From contig MHOA01000001.1 in the NCBI GenBank assembly GCA_001821765.1, forward strand, positions 174,078 to 238,077: a DNA stretch of 64,000 nt. The letters run 5' to 3'. This document shows positions 24,129 to 38,770 of this stretch, in pieces (within the stretch, counting starts at the first letter, position 1; each line of letters opens with the position of its first letter). Below the pieces are notes generated by a model. The model did no database searches. It was not told where the DNA came from and worked only from the letters and a program-made list of their open reading frames with translations. Source of the stretch: Candidatus Ryanbacteria bacterium RIFCSPLOWO2_12_FULL_44_26. Its GTDB lineage: Bacteria; Patescibacteriota; Minisyncoccia; Ryanbacterales; HO2-45-13. The position numbers and the translations under genes are program-made.

Positions 24129-25196
24129 TTGGTTATCTTTAAAAAATTAATACATTATTTACCATATATGGCTTATCTTATATTTTCCTTACTGGCGTTT
24201 TTTGTTTTAGCGCACCCGGCGCATGCGCTCGTGGCAGAGCTTAAAATCGTCGATGCTGAAGGCAACGAAAAGAAAAATTTCTCCAAAGATGAAGATGTAT
24301 ACCTGGCCGGAAAGTGTGCGCTTGCGAACGGAAATGAAGTAAAAATATTCATCTCTCGCGATAAAAGTGAATGGACTTCTGATCAAAACCTCAGTGACGT
24401 TTCCGGCGAGATTGAAACGGTAAAAATAAAAGACACAGACCTCCCCATTATTCCTATATGGAAACACCCGCTCAATAACGGATCATATGATGTCATTATA
24501 GACTCAAACGGCAATTTTAAACTTGATTCTTTTGAAAATTGCATTGCTCATGTTGCAACAGCGGGCTTTACCGTTGAATCTCAAGTTGTTTCGCCGTCAA
24601 CCAATCCTCAACCCCAATCAACTCCTTCTCCAGTGTATGTTCCGCCGCTGCCACCTCCTCCGCCCGCGCAAATAACTGTGCAACAGTCCGAACCGCCAAA
24701 ACCGTCAACGATCTTTTCATTGGAAGAGCGAATTGAGGTAAAAAGCCTTTCTAACGTTCGCGCTTCTGCCGGAGGAAGTCTGGTTGGCCAACAACCAGCA
24801 GGCGTTGAAGGAGTTATTGTTGGAGGTCCTGTATACGCAACACTTTTAGGCATCGGGTATTGGTTTTGGAATATTGACTACGACATCGATCCCGATGGCT
24901 GGACAGCAGAAAAAACCTTAAAAATTGCAGAAGTTCCTCCTCCTGAACCAGAATCGGAACCAACACCTCCTCTGCCAACAGAATCAACAGAAGTATTAGA
25001 ACCTCCAGCACAACAAGACGTCGCCCCGTCTATTCAGGATTCAGGCAAAGAAAGTGAACTTGCAGCGGTGTCCGAAAACTCCCCGGTAAATAATATTGAT
25101 GTGCTCGGCGGAATCTGGGGAGCAGGCATTATAGGGCTTGCAATTGTCTTAAGCGCGTGGATTTTAGGAAGAGCCGTGCGAAAACGGGGAGATTAA
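24129..25196 (+). CDS. secreted/cell-surface protein with Pro-rich linkers and C-terminal TM anchor
   Basis: 355 aa. Signal-peptide-like N-terminus ('...LAFFVLAHPAHALVAE'), Pro-rich tracts 'PVYVPPLPPPPPAQ' and 'PPPEPESEPTPPLP', and a C-terminal hydrophobic anchor followed by 'RAVRKRGD'. Confidence 0.5.
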   Translation: MVIFKKLIHYLPYMAYLIFSLLAFFVLAHPAHALVAELKIVDAEGNEKKNFSKDEDVYLAGKCALANGNEVKIFISRDKSEWTSDQNLSDVSGEIETVKIKDTDLPIIPIWKHPLNNGSYDVIIDSNGNFKLDSFENCIAHVATAGFTVESQVVSPSTNPQPQSTPSPVYVPPLPPPPPAQITVQQSEPPKPSTIFSLEERIEVKSLSNVRASAGGSLVGQQPAGVEGVIVGGPVYATLLGIGYWFWNIDYDIDPDGWTAEKTLKIAEVPPPEPESEPTPPLPTESTEVLEPPAQQDVAPSIQDSGKESELAAVSENSPVNNIDVLGGIWGAGIIGLAIVLSAWILGRAVRKRGD

Positions 25197-26404: not shown

Positions 26405-27532
26405 TTATTCGACCTTTTGAAAAATCTCAGGCCGTTCCAGCCCCCCTACAATAAGCTCGCCAACGGCGCCTTTATCAATAGCTCGCGAGAGACTATGGTC
26501 AACCAAAAGATATTTTCCGGGGACTTCAACCCTGAACTCCGTTATCATGGCACCGCCCGGCGGCACAATGGTAGTTTGCACATTTCGATGAGGCGGAGAA
26601 ATAATATCTCCTTCGGGATATAGTTTGTCGAGTATCCCGCCGATGACATGGAAATTCGAAGCAATATGCGACCCAACGCCAAAGAATATACGGATTGTTT
26701 CTCCGACATTTGCCTCGAGCGCATTTTCGCCCGTAAGCGCGCCAACCCGACCGTTGAAGGCAAAATACTCCGGCTGTTCCTGTTGCAGTTTTTCCAAACT
26801 GAATGCTTGATGGCCTTTCTCGCCAACCTTGCCTGCTGTATACCATTCGCCCTGCATGATATAGTATTCGCGGTCAACCTTCGCGAGCCCCTCTTTTGGC
26901 TCAACAAGAATCATTCCGTACATGCCATTTGCGACATGTGTGGGAATGTGAGGGCTTGCGCAATGGTACACATAAATGCCCGGACGCGTCGCATTGAACT
27001 GGAATGCGCGCGTTTCCCCGGATGCGACTTGTGTCAATACCGCTCCGCCGCCGGGGCCTTCAACTGCGTGCAGATCAACGGAGTGTTTGGCGTGGCCCGC
27101 CTCGGCATGCTCGTCCGATCCTTCGGCGTGGTCGCCGTTCGCATAGGCGGGGGGAGCGATTAGAGCATCAACAACAAACGAATGGGAGGATGCTGCGGTA
27201 TGATGATCTCCTTGGCTATGATTCAGGCGAATTTCTACAGTATCTCCTTCTTTCACTCGAATGAATGGCCCGGGTACGGTGCCGTTATAAGTCCAGTATT
27301 CATAAGTTACCCCGGGTGCAAGTTCGGCGATTACTTCTTTAGTTTCAAGTTCCACGACTACTTTTTTGTTTTCTCTCCTTACAATAGGAGACGGTAAATC
27401 ATCGGCGTGTTTGCTGATGTCGCTTACGCTCACCGGCTTTGCCGCCGGGGATATCTCACGCGTAGTTTTATACGCAATCCCAACTCCAATAATAAGAATG
27501 ATAATACCAACAAAAATCCAAACCTTTTTCAT
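26405..27532 (-). CDS. nirK: copper-containing nitrite reductase (NirK), membrane-anchored
   Basis: 375 aa with an N-terminal TM. It has the type-1/type-2 Cu ligand blocks 'HSVDLHAVEGPGGGAVLTQV' and 'GIYVYHCASPHIPTHVANGMYGMILVEP'; the canonical NirK blocks are 'HNIDFHAATGALGGG' and 'YHCAPEGMVPWHVTSGMNG'. It also carries a His-rich insertion. Confidence 0.85.
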   Translation of the reverse strand: MKKVWIFVGIIILIIGVGIAYKTTREISPAAKPVSVSDISKHADDLPSPIVRRENKKVVVELETKEVIAELAPGVTYEYWTYNGTVPGPFIRVKEGDTVEIRLNHSQGDHHTAASSHSFVVDALIAPPAYANGDHAEGSDEHAEAGHAKHSVDLHAVEGPGGGAVLTQVASGETRAFQFNATRPGIYVYHCASPHIPTHVANGMYGMILVEPKEGLAKVDREYYIMQGEWYTAGKVGEKGHQAFSLEKLQQEQPEYFAFNGRVGALTGENALEANVGETIRIFFGVGSHIASNFHVIGGILDKLYPEGDIISPPHRNVQTTIVPPGGAMITEFRVEVPGKYLLVDHSLSRAIDKGAVGELIVGGLERPEIFQKVE

Positions 27533-27551
27533 AGCGATTTATTCTTCCAAA

Positions 27552-27583
27552 GATCGTGGAGAATCCGGCAGGACTCCACGATT
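27552..27583 (-). promoter_or_regulatory. perfect 10-bp inverted repeat (gATCGTGGAG-N12-CTCCACGATc) 20-50 bp upstream of nirK ATG
   Basis: Read directly. It lies between the ArsR-like reading frame's end (27599) and the nirK start (27532). Geometry matches a 12-2-12-type winged-helix operator. Confidence 0.45.
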
Positions 27584-27598
27584 TTCGGATCGGCTATT

Positions 27599-27832
27599 TT
27601 ATAATATACATTGAGTCCGTTCCGCCGCACGGTGACCAACCGTGCCGTGACGGAGAACCGCAAGGTGCTGCGATACATTGGCTTTGGGGAGTTTAAGAGT
27701 CTTCACAAGTTCTTTCACTGCCAGCTCTTTTTACTTGAGTAAATTCAAAATCTCAAGCCGTTTGGGATTAGCGAGTAGTTTATAGATGGTGGCGTTACGC
27801 TCGTACGTTATTTTAGGAAATGATGATTTCAT
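27599..27832 (-). pseudogene. ArsR/SmtB-family HTH regulator interrupted by an in-frame TAA
   Basis: The minus-strand frame reads 'MKSSFPKITYERNATIYKLLANPKRLEILNLLK*KELAVKELVKTLKLPKANVSQHLAVLRHGTVGHRAAERTQCIL*'. The ArsR signatures 'LA(D/N)PxRLxIL.LL' and 'SQxxVSxHLxxLRxxGxV' are both present, on either side of the stop at 27733..27731. Track ORF 27731..28018 is the upstream half with a spurious N-terminal extension. Confidence 0.5.
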
Positions 27833-27935
27833 GGTTCGACGCCGCTCACCATGAATCCTGAGCTTGTCGAATGGATTCATGGTTCGACGCCGCTCACCAT
27901 GAATCCTGAGCTTGTCGAATGGATTCATGGTTTCG
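27828..27935. repeat. 48-bp tandem repeat x2.2, each unit containing the hairpin ttcatggt-N12-accatgaa and an ATG on the minus strand
   Basis: The unit ttcatggttcgacgccgctcaccatgaatcctgagcttgtcgaatgga is repeated at 27828, 27876 and partially at 27924. The most downstream unit supplies the ArsR-like gene's ATG. Confidence 0.8.
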
Positions 27936-28026
27936 AAACCACATGGTACGATTAAATCATACCACATCCAAGATTCTCCGCAAAATAGGTTTTGACTTTT
28001 TTGAAAAGACACCACCAAATTAAATA

Positions 28027-28072
28027 TGTGGACCGGATGAGGTTTGAACTCACAACCTCCTGCATGTTCCGA
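28027..28072 (-). other. tRNA-like 3' fragment (T-arm GTGAG-TTCAAAC-CTCAT + acceptor 3' strand CCGGTCC-A) without a 5' half
   Basis: Minus strand GGAGGTTGTGAGTTCAAACCTCATCCGGTCCACA. It shares the terminal GGTCCAC with the adjacent tRNA-Ala, and no complementary 5' acceptor strand is present. Confidence 0.25.
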
Positions 28073-28167
28073 TGTGCAAAGGTGGACCTAGGGAGAATCG
28101 AACTCCCACACCCCGCGTGCAAGGCGGGCGCACTACCATTATGCTATAGGCCCACCTTTGCACATCG
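28069..28167. repeat. 16-bp inverted repeat (cgatgtgcaaaggtgg / ccacctttgcacatcg) exactly bracketing tRNA-Ala
   Basis: Read directly. It extends the acceptor helix to a ~23-bp continuous stem. Confidence 0.7.
28081..28153 (-). tRNA. tRNA-Ala (anticodon TGC)
   Basis: Minus strand GGGCCTATAGCATAATGGTAGTGCGCCCGCCTTGCACGCGGGGTGTGGGAGTTCGATTCTCCCTAGGTCCACC. Acceptor GGGCCTA/TAGGTCC, anticodon stem CCCGC/GCGGG with loop CTTGCAC, and T-arm GGGAG-TTCGATT-CTCCC. Confidence 0.85.
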
Positions 28168-28192
28168 AGAATCCTCTATTTCTAAACAAATT

Positions 28193-28438
28193 TTAGAACT
28201 GTTTTATTAAATTTTCCAGATATACACGCTTTTTCAAAGATTTTAAATATCGCTCTCTTTTAACCACCTCGCTTCTCGTTTCATACGCTTCTTGATATAC
28301 GAGTGACCAAGGTCTCTTGTTTTTCGTGGATCGCACCATGCTCTTATTGTGTGCTACCAGCCTTAGGTCAATGTTCTGTGTGAAACCAATGTAATAAGCA
28401 CCGTTCTTGCGAGATGGAATAATGTACACATAAAACAT
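28193..28438 (-). CDS. GIY-YIG nuclease family small protein (UPF0213/YhbQ-like)
   Basis: Track ORF 28193..28510; the likely start is Met 'MFYVYIIPSRKNGAYYIGFTQNIDLRLVAHN...'. The GIY-YIG motifs 'YVYII' ... 'YIGFT' and a conserved Arg/Glu/Tyr region are present. Confidence 0.65.
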   Translation of the reverse strand: MFYVYIIPSRKNGAYYIGFTQNIDLRLVAHNKSMVRSTKNKRPWSLVYQEAYETRSEVVKRERYLKSLKKRVYLENLIKQF

Positions 28439-28539
28439 TTCAAAATTTATAGAAATCGGGACAAAGCGGGTGCTCTGGCCAATTGAGCCGACCCCTAAAA
28501 CAAAGAACATGATACTACAAAATCGCAGAAAAATCCATG

Positions 28540-29499
28540 TTACGTTACTGCAAGGCGTATCAAATGATCCAAAAGCTGCTGGAATTCCAATCCTGCGGCT
28601 TTTGCGGCTTTCGGATAAAGCGACTCACTTGTAAAACCGGGAGAGGAATTTACCTCCAACACATACAGTTTTGTACCGTCCAATATCATATCAACCCGGG
28701 AGTAATGCTGTAAGTGAAGGGCTTTGTGCGCTTTTACGGCTGTTTCGCGGATATGACGCAGCATATCTCCATAAAAATCCGCCGGGCAGATTTCTTTTGT
28801 TGAACCATCATATTTCGTCTGATAATCAAAGAACCGGTTTTCAGGCGGGATGATCTCAACCGGAGGAAGCGCAAAATATTTTTCACCTCCAAAATTCTCC
28901 AGCACGCCGCATGTCAGTTCTCTTCCCTTAACATATTTTTGGAGCATTGCGTGATCATCATACTGAAATGCGCGCTTAAAAGCGGACAGTAAACCCTCAA
29001 ACGTATGGACCATAGAAACCCCAACCGACGATCCTCTTCTTAACGGTTTTATCACCCACGGGGGAGCCGAAAAATCAACTGCTTTTTTAACAACTTCTGA
29101 TTCATTGATATTGTCTTTTTTAACGACAAAGCTTCTTGGAAGATGTAAACCCGCTTTTTTAAGTACCTGCCCGGAACGATCTTTATGCATTGCAAGGGCT
29201 GATCCAAAAACACCACTCCCCACATACGGAATCCTTATAGAGTCAAGAATGCCCTGTACTTTCCCGTCTTCCCCATATTCACCGTGCATTGCATTAAACA
29301 CCACATCCGCGCCTCTAAGCGCTTCGGCTGGAGTCAGCCATTCTTGCTTCTCCCCCGCCAGCCATTCGCCGGTATGGGTGACATAAACAGGATGAACGTG
29401 ATAGCGCCCATGAAGCGCTTTTATAACGTTTCTTCCGCTCATCAAGGAAATGTCATGCTCGCTGGAAGGTCCCCCCATTAAAACCCCGACGGTTTTCAT
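28540..29499 (-). CDS. ddl: D-alanine--D-alanine ligase
   Basis: Track ORF 28540..29631; the likely start is ATG 29499 ('MKTVGVLMGGPSSEHDISLMSG...'). ATP-grasp motifs ('EVNSSPG'). Confidence 0.88.
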   Translation of the reverse strand: MKTVGVLMGGPSSEHDISLMSGRNVIKALHGRYHVHPVYVTHTGEWLAGEKQEWLTPAEALRGADVVFNAMHGEYGEDGKVQGILDSIRIPYVGSGVFGSALAMHKDRSGQVLKKAGLHLPRSFVVKKDNINESEVVKKAVDFSAPPWVIKPLRRGSSVGVSMVHTFEGLLSAFKRAFQYDDHAMLQKYVKGRELTCGVLENFGGEKYFALPPVEIIPPENRFFDYQTKYDGSTKEICPADFYGDMLRHIRETAVKAHKALHLQHYSRVDMILDGTKLYVLEVNSSPGFTSESLYPKAAKAAGLEFQQLLDHLIRLAVT

Positions 29500-29586
29500 G
29501 CTTACAGTATAAGCCTTACAAACAAACAAAAAAAGACGACGCCTGTGAGTTTTGTTGGCCTTCCTGCGACATGATATAATAAAAAC

Positions 29587-35631: not shown

Positions 35632-35663
35632 ACGTTACATATTCCTTGCGCTTTTCTAAAATG

Positions 35664-35737
35664 TGGGCACGGATGGACTCGAACCATCGACCTCTTCATT
35701 ATCAGTGAAGTGCTCTAACCAACTGAGCTACGTGCCC
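35664..35737 (-). tRNA. tRNA-Ile (anticodon GAT)
   Basis: Minus strand GGGCACGTAGCTCAGTTGGTTAGAGCACTTCACTGATAATGAAGAGGTCGATGGTTCGAGTCCATCCGTGCCCA. Anticodon stem CTTCA/TGAAG with loop CTGATAA. Confidence 0.88.
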
Positions 35738-35775
35738 GCCAACAGTGACCATTCCAACCGAGCTACACCCCCGGC
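35738..35775 (-). other. tRNA-like 5' fragment (GCCGGGGGTGTAGCTCGGTTGGAATGGTCAC...) abutting tRNA-Ile
   Basis: It resembles an acceptor 5' strand plus D-arm but lacks a foldable D stem and any 3' half. Confidence 0.2.
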
Positions 35776-36231: not shown

Positions 36232-36548
36232 ATTATTTAAAAGATAAGAAGTAATACGACCTTATAAGAGTGTTTTTAGCAGTGTGGTAACCGCTATCGC
36301 TGTTATAAGCATTACGCCAATAATAAAACACCTTTTTCTCTATTCTATACCTTATATAGGAAAAGAAAGATTGCAAGCTCATTTGAACGTTATTAAGAAT
36401 CCGCCGAATAGGCCGCCATTTAAAGGTTGAACGGCCAACACCTTTAAACCATTTTGTAGTTTGTAATGTATAGTCCAAAGTCAGACTAAGGACTATCAAC
36501 TATAAACTGGGTTAATCGACCTGGTAAGAATATAAATCCTTACTAGGA

Positions 36549-38770
<2,222 letters not shown>

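What the first reader, a model, noticed from the sequence alone, without database searches (positions are those of the whole stretch)
28027..28167. tRNA-Ala embedded in a 16-bp extended stem, next to a tRNA 3'-half-like fragment
Perfect inverted repeats cgatgtgcaaaggtgg/ccacctttgcacatcg abut both ends of tRNA-Ala, so the precursor would form a ~23-bp continuous helix through the acceptor stem. This is unusual for RNase P/Z substrates and is reminiscent of RNase III or BHB-like processing stems, or of a tRNA captured in a mobile hairpin.

Immediately 3' lies a T-arm plus acceptor-3' fragment sharing GGTCCAC with the tRNA; it could be a remnant of an integration or excision at the tRNA 3' end.
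Basis: seen in the sequence. Interest (0 to 1): 0.5.

Follow-up and report, generated by a model that had tools for sequence, protein, structure and literature searches.

The report
Spare tRNA inside a tRNA-splitting element
The stem-clamped tRNA-Ala and the neighbouring tRNA fragment are parts of a 395-base insert that carries a tiny nuclease gene, has split an older tRNA-Ala gene in its anticodon loop, and supplies a replacement tRNA; I found no description of this arrangement.

Summary
tRNA-Ala(UGC) lies on the minus strand at 28153..28083. Perfectly complementary 14-nt arms flank it and extend the acceptor stem into a 21-bp helix. The "3'-half fragment" (28066..28029) is the 3' half of an older tRNA-Ala gene. 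Its 5' half lies about 400 nt upstream (28495..28462).

A 395-nt insert (28461..28067) separates the halves, exactly between anticodon nucleotides 35 and 36. The insert has two hairpin modules. One encloses an 81-aa GIY-YIG nuclease ORF of the minimal, Slx1-like type. The other encloses the intact tRNA-Ala.

Ten further distinct Patescibacteria loci share this architecture. All use the same insertion point, and nine have a complementary clamp. The clamp sequence differs between loci but stays fully paired: 15 pairs, 9 of 9 sequences, 11 pairs with compensatory changes. Among 77 other tRNAs the longest equivalent pairing is 3 bp.

Elements are nested inside the cargo tRNA of earlier copies, up to three deep. 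In-silico removal of the insert restores a normal tRNA-Ala in three loci.

Best reading: a selfish GIY-YIG hairpin element that invades tRNA-Ala genes and brings its own replacement tRNA. Mobility and the clamp's function are inferred, not shown. I found no published description.

The parts
28462..28495 (-). 5' half of the split outer tRNA-Ala(UGC) gene: GGGGTCGGCTCAATTGGCCAGAGCACCCGCTTTG, ending at anticodon nt 35. It is decayed: nt 8-9 are missing and the acceptor stem has mismatches.
   Evidence: Sequence. Relatives have the same position and junction. The joined halves are 67% identical to the inner tRNA and keep the anticodon loop UUUGCAU and G3:U70. ARAGORN no longer calls the joined halves.
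28444..28461 (-). Left terminus of the insert and left arm of the ORF-enclosing hairpin (M1): TCCCGATTTCTATAAATT.
   Evidence: 25 of 26 bases are identical to L010 although the ORFs are only 53% identical. An exact-match scan with this motif retrieved 7 further loci, all with the same architecture. It pairs with 28172-28192.
28193..28438 (-). GIY-YIG nuclease ORF of 81 aa, consisting of the minimal domain only. The stop codon is included in the coordinates.
   Evidence: Pfam PF01541, E = 1.8e-16. Closest solved structures are the UPF0213 proteins 1ywl and 1zg2, then SLX1. These are classed as prokaryotic Slx1-like minimal GIY-YIG proteins in PMC1564403. Conserved residues Y3, Y5, Y16, R26, H30 and E62 are present.
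28172..28192 (-). Right arm of the ORF-enclosing hairpin (M1): AATTTGTTTAGAAATAGAGGA.
   Evidence: It pairs with 28444-28461 in the MFE fold of the whole unit. The stem is kept in 10 of 10 members, with compensatory changes.
28154..28171 (-). TTCT linker plus the 14-nt leader arm of the tRNA clamp: CGATGTGCAAAGGT (28154-28167).
   Evidence: Covariation is shown.
28083..28153 (-). Intact inner (cargo) tRNA-Ala(UGC), 71 nt through discriminator A73.
   Evidence: ARAGORN. Rfam 68.2 bits. All four stems covary across 9 members.
28067..28082 (-). Trailer arm of the clamp, CCTTTGCACATCG (28070-28082), plus GAA (28067-28069). Together these end in ATCGGAA, the right terminus of the insert, which is an imperfect inverted copy of TCCCGAT.
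   Evidence: The terminus is a perfect ATCGGGA in L098 and L103.
28029..28066 (-). 3' half of the split outer tRNA-Ala gene: CATGCAGGAGGTTGTGAGTTCAAACCTCATCCGGTCCA, starting at anticodon nt 36.
   Evidence: Relatives have the same junction. In-silico excision restores tRNA-Ala in L099, L094 and L098.

Best explanation
**What it is.** The region is one composite selfish DNA element sitting inside a tRNA-Ala(UGC) gene. An ancestral tRNA-Ala gene was cut open between anticodon nucleotides 35 and 36. It now flanks, as two dead halves, a 395-nt insert bounded by short inverted termini (TCCCGAT...ATCGGAA).

**The two hairpin modules.**
- A stem of about 20 bp closes the first module. It runs from just 5' of the start codon to the stop codon of an 81-aa minimal GIY-YIG (Slx1-like) nuclease gene.
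- A 14-bp clamp stacked on the acceptor stem closes the second module, which holds a complete, functional tRNA-Ala.

**Proposed mechanism (inferred).**
1. The whole unit is transcribed from the old tRNA promoter.
2. The cargo tRNA replaces the gene that the element destroyed. The host therefore tolerates the insertion and cannot lose it.
3. The nuclease promotes insertion of the unit into intact tRNA-Ala genes, including the cargo tRNA of earlier copies, which produces nested "Russian-doll" loci.
4. The clamp keeps the cargo tRNA's own ends paired, although near-identical tRNA halves lie on the same transcript. It may also give a double-stranded processing site or a DNA hairpin end.

**Shown:** the anatomy, the fixed insertion point, the conservation and covariation of both stems, the nesting, and the decay of the outer halves.

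**Inferred:** the nuclease activity and its target, the mobility mechanism, and whether the clamp acts at the RNA or the DNA level.
For: **Anatomy in the window.** establish the parts.

**Same order of parts in relatives.** I found ten other distinct loci: L010/L097, L094/L096, L095/L098, L099/L100, L101, L102, L103, L104, L106 and L107/L108. Their ORFs are only 47-57% identical to the window's. The junction is always ..UG(35)|TCCCGAT....ATCGGrA|C(36)A.., including one tRNA-Ala(CGC) host.

**Excision in silico.** Deleting the insert restores an ARAGORN tRNA-Ala(UGC) in L099, L094 and L098.

**Clamp.** Nine of the ten relatives carry complementary clamp arms, ten clamps in all because nested L102 has two. 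In the nine-module alignment all 15 pairs are formed in 9 of 9 modules. Eleven pairs show changes on both sides. No shuffle of 500 reached the observed value, and slid controls pair only 28-47% of cells. Such clamps occur on no other tRNA examined.

**ORF stem.** It is kept in 10 of 10 members, with compensatory changes that even involve the stop codon. It is also predicted in the MFE fold.

**Nesting and polymorphism.** L098 and L102 have 2-3 levels. L104 has one more unit than L103.

**The cargo differs from the host gene.**
- In the window the inner tRNA is 67% identical to the outer halves.
- The same inner tRNA is 89% identical to L099's cargo.
- In L094 inner and outer differ by paired changes in the acceptor and T stems.

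**Life-cycle signs.** The ORF is pseudogenised in L099/L100 and deleted in the middle level of L102, while the tRNA module persists.

**ORF-less hairpins.** Hairpins with the same termini occur only inside dead tRNA halves.

**Wider family.** 42 of 79 loci encoding related GIY-YIG ORFs, across many phyla, have an intact same-strand tRNA within 120 nt. None has one on the opposite strand. tRNA remnants and tandem arrays are common.
Against: - No activity of the 81-aa protein is known. It has no DNA-binding domain, so sequence-specific homing is hard to picture.
- No relative with an uninterrupted tRNA-Ala at the same genomic position was recovered. Presence/absence polymorphism is therefore only indirect, resting on L103 versus L104 and on the nesting.
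- The window's outer halves are decayed. In addition, ddl lies just upstream of the element in both the window and L107, whose Ddl proteins are 45% identical and whose ORFs are 52% identical. This copy may therefore be ancient, vertically inherited and no longer mobile.
- L107/L108 keep an intact inner tRNA without the trailer arm, so the clamp is not strictly indispensable.
- The variable part of the clamp has no G:U pairs, whereas the tRNA's internal stems do. This does not favour a purely RNA-level role.
- The element was absent from viral contigs.
Confidence: 0.7

Rival explanations
1. The insert is a new kind of tRNA intron. The whole 395-nt insert would be removed from the outer pre-tRNA at the RNA level, for example by cuts at the bases of the two hairpins followed by ligation. 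The outer tRNA-Ala would then be the functional gene and the inner tRNA a passenger.
For: - The insert sits at position 35/36, the same site as experimentally spliced group I introns in Patescibacteria tRNA-Asn and tRNA-Asp genes (PMC13011429).
- The two hairpins bring the junctions together.
- In L099 the outer halves are still intact and are followed by CCA and a terminator.
Against: - No group I core is present. Rfam finds no intron hit in 27000-29500 even at E <= 10. Only about 85 nt are neither ORF nor tRNA.
- The 5' exon ends in G, not U.
- There is no bulge-helix-bulge geometry.
- The outer halves are decayed or carry further hairpin insertions in the window, L010, L094, L101, L102 and L107. 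They are therefore not under selection.
- The inner tRNA shows full covariation, as a functional tRNA does.
Confidence: 0.08
2. The clamp is a host-evolved processing stem for tRNA-Ala, like the RNase III stems around rRNAs. It would be unrelated to any mobile element, and the fragment and ORF would be coincidental neighbours.
For: - A helix of 20 bp or more is a classical RNase III substrate (general knowledge).
- tRNA-Ala is normally an rRNA-operon spacer tRNA, and 16S with tRNA-Ile lie 7.5 kb away.
Against: - The clamp occurs only together with the GIY-YIG ORF module, or its deleted remnant, and the split tRNA halves. This holds in all ten complementary clamps found, across the window and nine relatives.
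- It occurs in none of 77 other tRNAs, including tRNA-Ala genes next to related ORFs.
- In nested loci the clamp moves together with the tRNA (L098, L102).
Confidence: 0.05
3. The element is a fossil. It was once mobile but is now fixed and vertically inherited. The ORF would be kept for a host function, such as repair or RNA metabolism as proposed for prokaryotic Slx1-like proteins. The clamp would be kept only because the cargo tRNA is now the cell's tRNA-Ala.
For: - Outer halves in the window are decayed.
- ddl lies just upstream of the element in both the window and L107, and ORF divergence (52% identity) is similar to Ddl divergence (45% identity).
- The locus is identical across many Rifle assemblies apart from a nearby repeat.
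- PMC1564403 regards the family as mostly vertically inherited.
Against: - Nested copies with identical arms (L098) and a unit-number polymorphism between samples (L103 versus L104) indicate recent activity in related lineages.
- ORF pseudogenes exist (L099), so the ORF is dispensable to the host.
- This rival concerns only the present state of the window's copy. It does not contradict the origin proposed in the best explanation.
Confidence: 0.2
4. The pattern is chance complementarity or an assembly artefact, such as a chimeric join at a repeated tRNA.
For: None beyond the general risk that metagenome assemblies misjoin at repeats.
Against: - The same locus was assembled independently in at least 23 contigs from several projects.
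- The architecture recurs in ten further distinct loci.
- A perfect 14-nt complement has a probability of about 4e-9 per tRNA. Background tRNAs reach at most 3 bp.
Confidence: 0.01

Closest known systems
Free-standing GIY-YIG homing endonuclease genes in tRNA gene regions (phage T4 SegB; PMC2330249)
   Same: Both have a GIY-YIG nuclease ORF lodged among or within tRNA genes. In both the ORF is inherited together with flanking tRNA sequence. Neither has an intron ribozyme.
   Different: SegB is a two-domain enzyme of about 220 aa with a DNA-binding domain. It lies between tRNA genes in a phage and splits no gene. Here the protein is an 81-aa catalytic domain of the Slx1-like branch. The ORF is enclosed in a hairpin, the target tRNA is split in its anticodon loop, and a spare tRNA is carried.
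Group I introns at position 35/36 of tRNA genes in Patescibacteria (PMC13011429)
   Same: Same phylum, same kind of target, and the same insertion position in the anticodon (35/36). Some of these introns carry endonuclease genes.
   Different: Those introns restore the tRNA by self-splicing, have a ribozyme core, and their endonuclease genes are of the HNH type. Here there is no ribozyme. The split tRNA decays and a complete replacement tRNA inside the insert restores function.
tRNA-targeting integrative elements (prophages and genomic islands that carry a copy of the tRNA 3' end)
   Same: The element brings tRNA sequence with it, so a functional tRNA survives insertion. A tRNA remnant is left at one border.
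   Different: Those elements are kilobases long and use tyrosine or serine integrases with an attP that overlaps the tRNA 3' end. Here the insert is 395 nt with no integrase. The breakpoint is in the anticodon loop, a whole tRNA is carried, and remnants lie on both sides.
'Fractured genes' split by free-standing homing endonuclease genes and healed by split inteins (PMC2677866)
   Same: An endonuclease gene sits in the middle of an essential gene, and the element supplies the means of restoring the gene product.
   Different: There the healing is protein trans-splicing of the two halves. Here the halves are abandoned and a full replacement gene is supplied.
Prokaryotic Slx1-like minimal GIY-YIG proteins (UPF0213; PDB 1ywl, 1zg2; PMC1564403)
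   Same: These are the closest sequence relatives of the ORF. They have the same domain-only architecture.
   Different: They are described as probable repair or RNA-metabolism proteins with mostly vertical descent. The sources I read mention no link to tRNA genes, hairpins or mobility.
RNase III processing stems flanking rRNAs, and REP/MITE-type palindromic elements
   Same: Both involve a long leader-trailer helix around a stable RNA. Both also include short, ORF-less hairpins with shared termini scattered nearby.
   Different: rRNA stems belong to the host operon and are not mobile. REPs and MITEs are not known to enclose a tRNA or to sit in tRNA loops with a GIY-YIG partner.

Membership tests
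tRNA (Rfam RF00005), alanine isoacceptor | Cloverleaf scoring above the gathering threshold, anticodon UGC, and the G3:U70 identity pair. | tested here: met
   Rfam scores 68.2 bits against a threshold of 29. ARAGORN calls Ala(tgc). G3:U70 is invariant in 9 of 9 members, and all stems covary.
GIY-YIG nuclease superfamily (Pfam PF01541), prokaryotic Slx1-like/UPF0213 branch | Match to the GIY-YIG domain with the conserved Tyr, Tyr, Arg, His and Glu residues, in a domain-only architecture. | tested here: met
   PF01541 E = 1.8e-16. Invariant Y3, Y5, Y16, R26, H30 and E62. Best PDB hits are 1ywl and 1zg2, then SLX1.
Homing endonuclease gene (selfish element) | Insertion at one fixed site of a conserved host gene across lineages. 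| tested here: met
   The junction lies between nt 35 and 36 of tRNA-Ala in all 11 distinct loci.
Homing endonuclease gene (selfish element) | Empty and occupied alleles exist, and the endonuclease cleaves the empty site. | not testable with these tools
   Only indirect evidence is available: in-silico excision restores tRNA-Ala, loci are nested, and L103 and L104 differ in unit number.
Group I intron | Conserved ribozyme core (P3-P9), and a U at the end of the 5' exon. | tested here: not met
   There is no Intron_gpI hit in 27000-29500 at E <= 10, although the window's 16S intron is found by the same library. The 5' exon ends in G. Only about 85 nt are neither ORF nor tRNA.
Archaeal/eukaryal-type tRNA intron (bulge-helix-bulge) | Two 3-nt bulges separated by a 4-bp helix at the exon-intron junctions. 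| tested here: not met
   By inspection of the junctions and the fold, the anticodon stem is followed by a 4-nt/3-nt internal loop and then the terminal-repeat helix. No BHB is present.
Integrase-mediated tRNA-targeting island | An integrase gene, and an att repeat overlapping the tRNA 3' end. | tested here: not met
   The 395-nt insert contains only the 81-aa ORF and the tRNA. The breakpoint is in the anticodon loop, and there is no direct att repeat.
Classical TIR DNA transposon / insertion sequence | Terminal inverted repeats, a target-site duplication and a transposase. | tested here: inconclusive
   Short inverted termini are present (TCCCGAT/ATCGGrA), as are ORF-less derivatives. However, there is no target-site duplication: the anticodon loop is restored exactly on excision. 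There is also no known transposase fold.
RNase III processing stem | At least 20 bp of double-stranded RNA flanking a stable RNA, cleaved by RNase III. | not testable with these tools
   A helix of 21-22 bp is present and conserved. Cleavage cannot be tested here.

The most novel reading that the evidence does not exclude
This is the first recognised member of a new class of hairpin-ended DNA elements. They would be mobilised by an 81-aa Slx1-like GIY-YIG nuclease that recognises DNA structure, or an RNA guide, rather than sequence, and inserts into the loops of tRNA genes. The autonomous form carries an "antidote" tRNA in a clamp, which makes the host dependent on it and produces tRNA genes nested inside tRNA genes. 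Relatives without a clamp would parasitise many other tRNA genes across bacterial phyla.
Probability: 0.45. Interest if true: 0.85.

Novelty: new variant of a known kind. Interest (0 to 1): 0.75.

Why it matters
- **A third way to invade an essential gene.** If the reading is right, selfish endonuclease elements have a route besides self-splicing introns and inteins: they bring a spare copy of the gene. The cost of insertion then turns into host addiction.
- **A role for an uncharacterised family.** The prokaryotic Slx1-like/UPF0213 GIY-YIG proteins are widespread and their function is unknown. This gives them a concrete candidate role, and more than half of the loci sampled here lie beside tRNA genes.
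- **Annotation.** It explains tRNA "pseudogene halves" and missed or duplicated tRNA-Ala calls in Patescibacteria genomes.
- **A testable system.** It is a minimal case for asking how a domain-only nuclease finds a precise site, and how a tRNA is folded and processed from a transcript that also contains near-identical half copies.

Tried and rejected
- **Group I intron.** Rejected. There is no ribozyme hit at E <= 10, there is no room for a core, and the 5' exon ends in G.
- **Bulge-helix-bulge intron.** Rejected by inspection of the junction geometry.
- **Integrase-type island, or a remnant of integration at the tRNA 3' end.** Rejected. There is no integrase, and the breakpoint is in the anticodon loop.
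- **Chance or assembly artefact.** Rejected.
- **Other copies in the window.** I looked for further copies of the 16-mer, the termini and the ORF in the 64 kb. There are none. The one regex hit, at 24890-24959, lies in a coding region and is chance.
- **Clamps on the window's other tRNAs.** tRNA-Gln and tRNA-Ile have none.
- **Promoter and terminator scan of 27700-28800.** Nothing convincing.
- **Look-up of the window's long Ddl ORF.** No exact record.
- **First search for related loci attempt with a broad alignment.** It failed for lack of a conserved stretch.
- **Viral contigs.** No match to either junction motif.
- **Literature.** Nine full-text searches on GIY-YIG, tRNA, Patescibacteria/CPR, UPF0213 and YhbQ found no description of this arrangement. 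The library is incomplete, so this is not proof of absence.
Full report
**1. The observation**

The window encodes tRNA-Ala(UGC) on the minus strand. ARAGORN places it at 28081-28153, and Rfam tRNA scores 68.2 bits against a gathering score of 29.

The perfect 16-nt inverted repeat is at the stated coordinates, 28070-28085 and 28152-28167. Read on the tRNA strand:
- The leader is CGATGTGCAAAGGU.
- The trailer following discriminator A73 is CCUUUGCACAUCG.
- U-1 pairs with A73, and 13 further pairs follow.
- With the 7-bp acceptor stem, including G3:U70, this makes 21 continuous pairs, then one U:G.

The predicted fold is a cloverleaf on top of this helix, with z = -6.2. The adjacent fragment, a T arm plus a 3' acceptor strand, is also real (family D4; sequence).

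**2. What surrounds it**

Reading the minus strand, the order is:
- 28495..28462: a 34-nt tRNA 5' half ending ..CCCGC UUUG.
- 28461..28444: TCCCGATTTCTATAAATT.
- 28438..28193: an 81-aa ORF that is a GIY-YIG domain and nothing else (Pfam 1.8e-16).
- 28192..28172: AATTTGTTTAGAAATAGAGGA.
- TTCT.
- The leader arm, the tRNA-Ala and the trailer arm.
- GAA.
- 28066..28029: CAUGCAGG, then the variable loop, T arm, CCGGUCC and A.

The two outer pieces join to give an anticodon loop UUUGCAU (anticodon UGC), a 4-of-5 anticodon stem and G3:U70. They are therefore the two halves of a second tRNA-Ala(UGC) gene, interrupted between nt 35 and 36 by a 395-nt insert. This outer gene has decayed: two bases are missing at positions 8-9, the acceptor stem has mismatches, and ARAGORN no longer calls the joined halves.

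Flanking genes are ddl and a multicopper oxidase. The window matches CPR/Patescibacteria contigs from Rifle aquifer metagenomes.

**3. Relatives**

- A genome-collection scan with an alignment of the ORF's homologues gave 79 loci from many phyla.
- The best of these, a Candidatus Spechtbacteria contig (L010, ORF 53% identical), has the same architecture. There the outer halves are exact copies of the inner tRNA-Ala.
- The left junction motif is 25 of 26 bases identical between the two loci, more conserved than the ORF. An exact-match scan of metagenome contigs with it returned 7 loci, all built the same way.
- A second protein search and five contig look-ups added L101 to L108.

Together these give ten further distinct loci. 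In every one the junction is ..G35 | TCCCGAT ... ATCGGrA | C36.. This includes L106, where both host and cargo are tRNA-Ala(CGC).

Deleting the insert in silico restores a clean ARAGORN tRNA-Ala(UGC) in L099, L094 and L098. In L094 two small D-loop hairpins had to be deleted as well. In L099 the outer gene still has its encoded CCA and a terminator, so that insertion looks recent.

**4. The clamp**

The arms differ between members but are always complementary:

| Locus | Leader arm | Trailer arm |
|---|---|---|
| Window | CGATGTGCAAAGGT | CCTTTGCACATCG |
| L099 | CGATGTGCAGAGGT | CCTCTGCACATCG |
| L010 | CGATAACAAAGGT | CCTTTGTTATCG |
| L094 | CGGTATGCTTTGGT | CCAAAGCATACCG |
| L098 | CGATAAATTGTGGT | CCACAATTTATCG |
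| L101 | CGATAGCAAAGGT | CCTTTGCTATCG |
| L102 (middle) | CGACAGCGGACGT | CGTCCGCTGTCG |
| L102 (inner) | CCGATAAAATGTGGT | CCACATTTTATCGG |
| L103 | CGATTAATTTGGT | CCAAATTAATCG |

On an alignment of these nine modules, the 15 pairs next to the acceptor stem are formed in 9 of 9 sequences. Eleven of them show changes on both sides. No shuffle of 500 reached the observed values, and sliding the partner by 1-3 columns drops pairing to 28-47% (five-sequence version).

Among 91 tRNAs in all fetched DNA, runs of 13-14 bp occur only here. The other 77 tRNAs have at most 3 bp. The clamp is therefore a selected structure specific to this element.

Two caveats:
- L107/L108 have lost the trailer arm and the outer 3' half but keep the tRNA.
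- L106 has six extra bases between A73 and the arm.

**5. The ORF module is also a hairpin**

The left terminus pairs with the sequence that starts at the stop codon, so a stem of about 20 bp encloses the ORF. This stem is predicted in the MFE fold of the whole unit. It is kept in 10 of 10 members at -13 to -24 kcal/mol. Compensatory differences include:
- L103: GATTGAAAAAATAAATTTTA paired with TAAAATTTATTTTTTCAATC.
- L106: stop codon TGA paired with TCA, where the others have TAA paired with TTA.

ORF-less hairpins with the same termini (TCCCGA...TCGAGGA) lie in the D-loops or T-loops of the dead outer halves in L010, L094, L101, L102 and L107. In about 57 kb of these contigs they were found nowhere else. 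The ORF module, the tRNA module and the empty hairpins thus look like one kind of hairpin unit whose loop holds an ORF, a tRNA, or nothing.

**6. Signs of mobility and of a selfish life cycle**

- **Nesting.** In L098 the invaded tRNA itself carries the clamp arms and lies inside the halves of a third tRNA-Ala.
- **Three levels.** L102 has three levels of nesting. Its middle level has lost the ORF but kept the tRNA module.
- **Polymorphism.** L104 has one more "3' half plus trailer" unit than the otherwise identical L103.
- **Decay.** The ORF is truncated by an early stop in L099/L100.
- **Foreign cargo.** The cargo need not resemble the host gene:

| Comparison | Identity |
|---|---|
| Window inner vs window outer | 67% |
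| Window inner vs L099 cargo | 89% |
| Window inner vs L107 cargo | 83% |

In L094 inner and outer differ by paired changes in the acceptor and T stems, so two distinct functional tRNA-Ala genes were involved.

Against recent mobility of the window's own copy:
- The outer halves are decayed.
- ddl lies just upstream of the element in both the window and L107, whose Ddl proteins are 45% identical and whose ORFs are 52% identical. This fits long vertical co-inheritance.

**7. The wider protein family**

The closest solved structures are the UPF0213 proteins 1ywl and 1zg2, followed by SLX1. PMC1564403 classes 1ywl and 1zg2 as prokaryotic, domain-only members of the Slx1 branch, presumed repair proteins. 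Slx1 is a structure-specific nuclease.

In the 79 genome loci, 42 have an intact tRNA on the same strand within 120 nt of the ORF or ORF array. None has one on the opposite strand, and the isotypes are diverse. Many loci also have tRNA remnants:
- L007 has tRNA-Val 5' and 3' fragments with TCCGCC..GGCGGA palindromes in place of loops.
- L089, L091 and L092 show similar remnants.
- L041 has seven tandem ORF-plus-remnant units, and L050 has three.

None of these has a clamp. The tRNA association is therefore general to the family, while the clamp and the whole-tRNA cargo are special to the Patescibacteria tRNA-Ala subfamily.

**8. Mechanism proposed**

*Shown:* the anatomy, the fixed insertion site, the selected stems, the nesting, the decay of the outer halves, and a cargo tRNA with the hallmarks of a functional tRNA.

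*Inferred:*
1. The unit is transcribed from the old tRNA promoter. No independent promoter was found.
2. The cargo tRNA substitutes for the destroyed gene. Insertion is therefore tolerated, and loss of the element would be lethal if the cargo is the only tRNA-Ala(UGC).
3. The nuclease initiates insertion into intact tRNA-Ala genes. Copying by break repair from an occupied allele explains insertion without target duplication. It also explains re-invasion of cargo tRNAs, because the outer halves can serve as homology arms. The ORF-less hairpins at other tRNA loops argue for an additional insertion activity that depends on the termini and on DNA structure, in keeping with an Slx1-like enzyme that lacks a DNA-binding domain.
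4. The clamp forces the cargo's own 5' and 3' ends together on a transcript that also carries near-identical half tRNAs. It may also provide an RNase III site or a DNA hairpin end.

The variable part of the clamp has no G:U pairs, whereas the tRNA's internal stems have several. This leaves a DNA-level role open.

**9. Comparison with known systems and novelty**

The insert is not a group I intron, not a BHB intron and not an integrase island; each was tested and not met. It resembles four known things in part:
- Free-standing GIY-YIG homing endonuclease genes, such as T4 SegB in a tRNA cluster.
- Patescibacterial group I introns at 35/36.
- tRNA-restoring integrative elements.
- "Fractured genes" healed by split inteins.

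It differs from all of them in healing the target with a complete spare gene held in a hairpin. Nine literature searches found no description, though the library is incomplete.

I rate it a new variant of a known kind, namely selfish endonuclease elements of conserved genes. It may prove to be a new class once the mechanism is known.

**10. Verdict**

The finding is real and not ordinary. Confidence is about 0.9 in the structural reading and about 0.7 in the selfish-element-with-replacement-tRNA explanation as a whole. It is lower for any specific role of the clamp.

Noticed in passing
window 36543-38766 (-), 35663-35737 (-): The 16S rRNA gene is 2224 nt long. It contains a group I intron (Rfam hit 37425-37708) and roughly 400 nt more of unexplained insertion. 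tRNA-Ile(GAU) follows it, but tRNA-Ala lies 7.5 kb away and there is no 23S hit in the 64 kb, so the rRNA operon is dispersed.
   Followed up: no
window ~35749-35772 (-): A fragment resembling a tRNA 5' part (GGGGGTGTAGCTCGGTTGGAATGG) lies just upstream of tRNA-Ile. It may be another tRNA remnant.
   Followed up: no
window 27823-27932: A 48-nt tandem repeat of about 2.3 units, internally palindromic, lies about 100 nt downstream of the outer tRNA 3' half. Its unit number differs between independent assemblies of the same locus: L001 is one unit shorter than L002 and L003.
   Followed up: partly
L041:1881-4131 and L050:1904-3110: These loci hold tandem arrays of GIY-YIG ORFs, each followed by a tRNA remnant. 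L041 has seven units with a 331-nt period behind tRNA-Asn. L050 has three units with a 375-nt period behind tRNA-Arg, and each remnant carries the palindrome CCTGCCTGCCGGCAGGCAGG in its D-loop.
   Followed up: partly
L007:2820-3310, L089:740-1100, L091/L092: In Bacteroidota-like and other genomes, related GIY-YIG ORFs sit beside an intact tRNA (Val or Arg). They are flanked by copies of that tRNA whose D, anticodon or T arms are replaced by short TCCGCC-n-GGCGGA palindromes.
   Followed up: partly
L094 (D-loop of the outer tRNA half), L107:752-840, L010:2380-2425, L102: ORF-less hairpins of 25-44 nt carry the element's termini (TCCCGA...TCGAGGA). They are inserted in the D-loops and T-loops of the dead tRNA halves and were not seen elsewhere in about 57 kb of these contigs.
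   Followed up: partly
L099/L100 (ORF region): The Hainich groundwater relative closest to the window's cargo tRNA has a premature stop after codon 8 of the GIY-YIG ORF. Both tRNA copies remain nearly identical (97%).
   Followed up: partly
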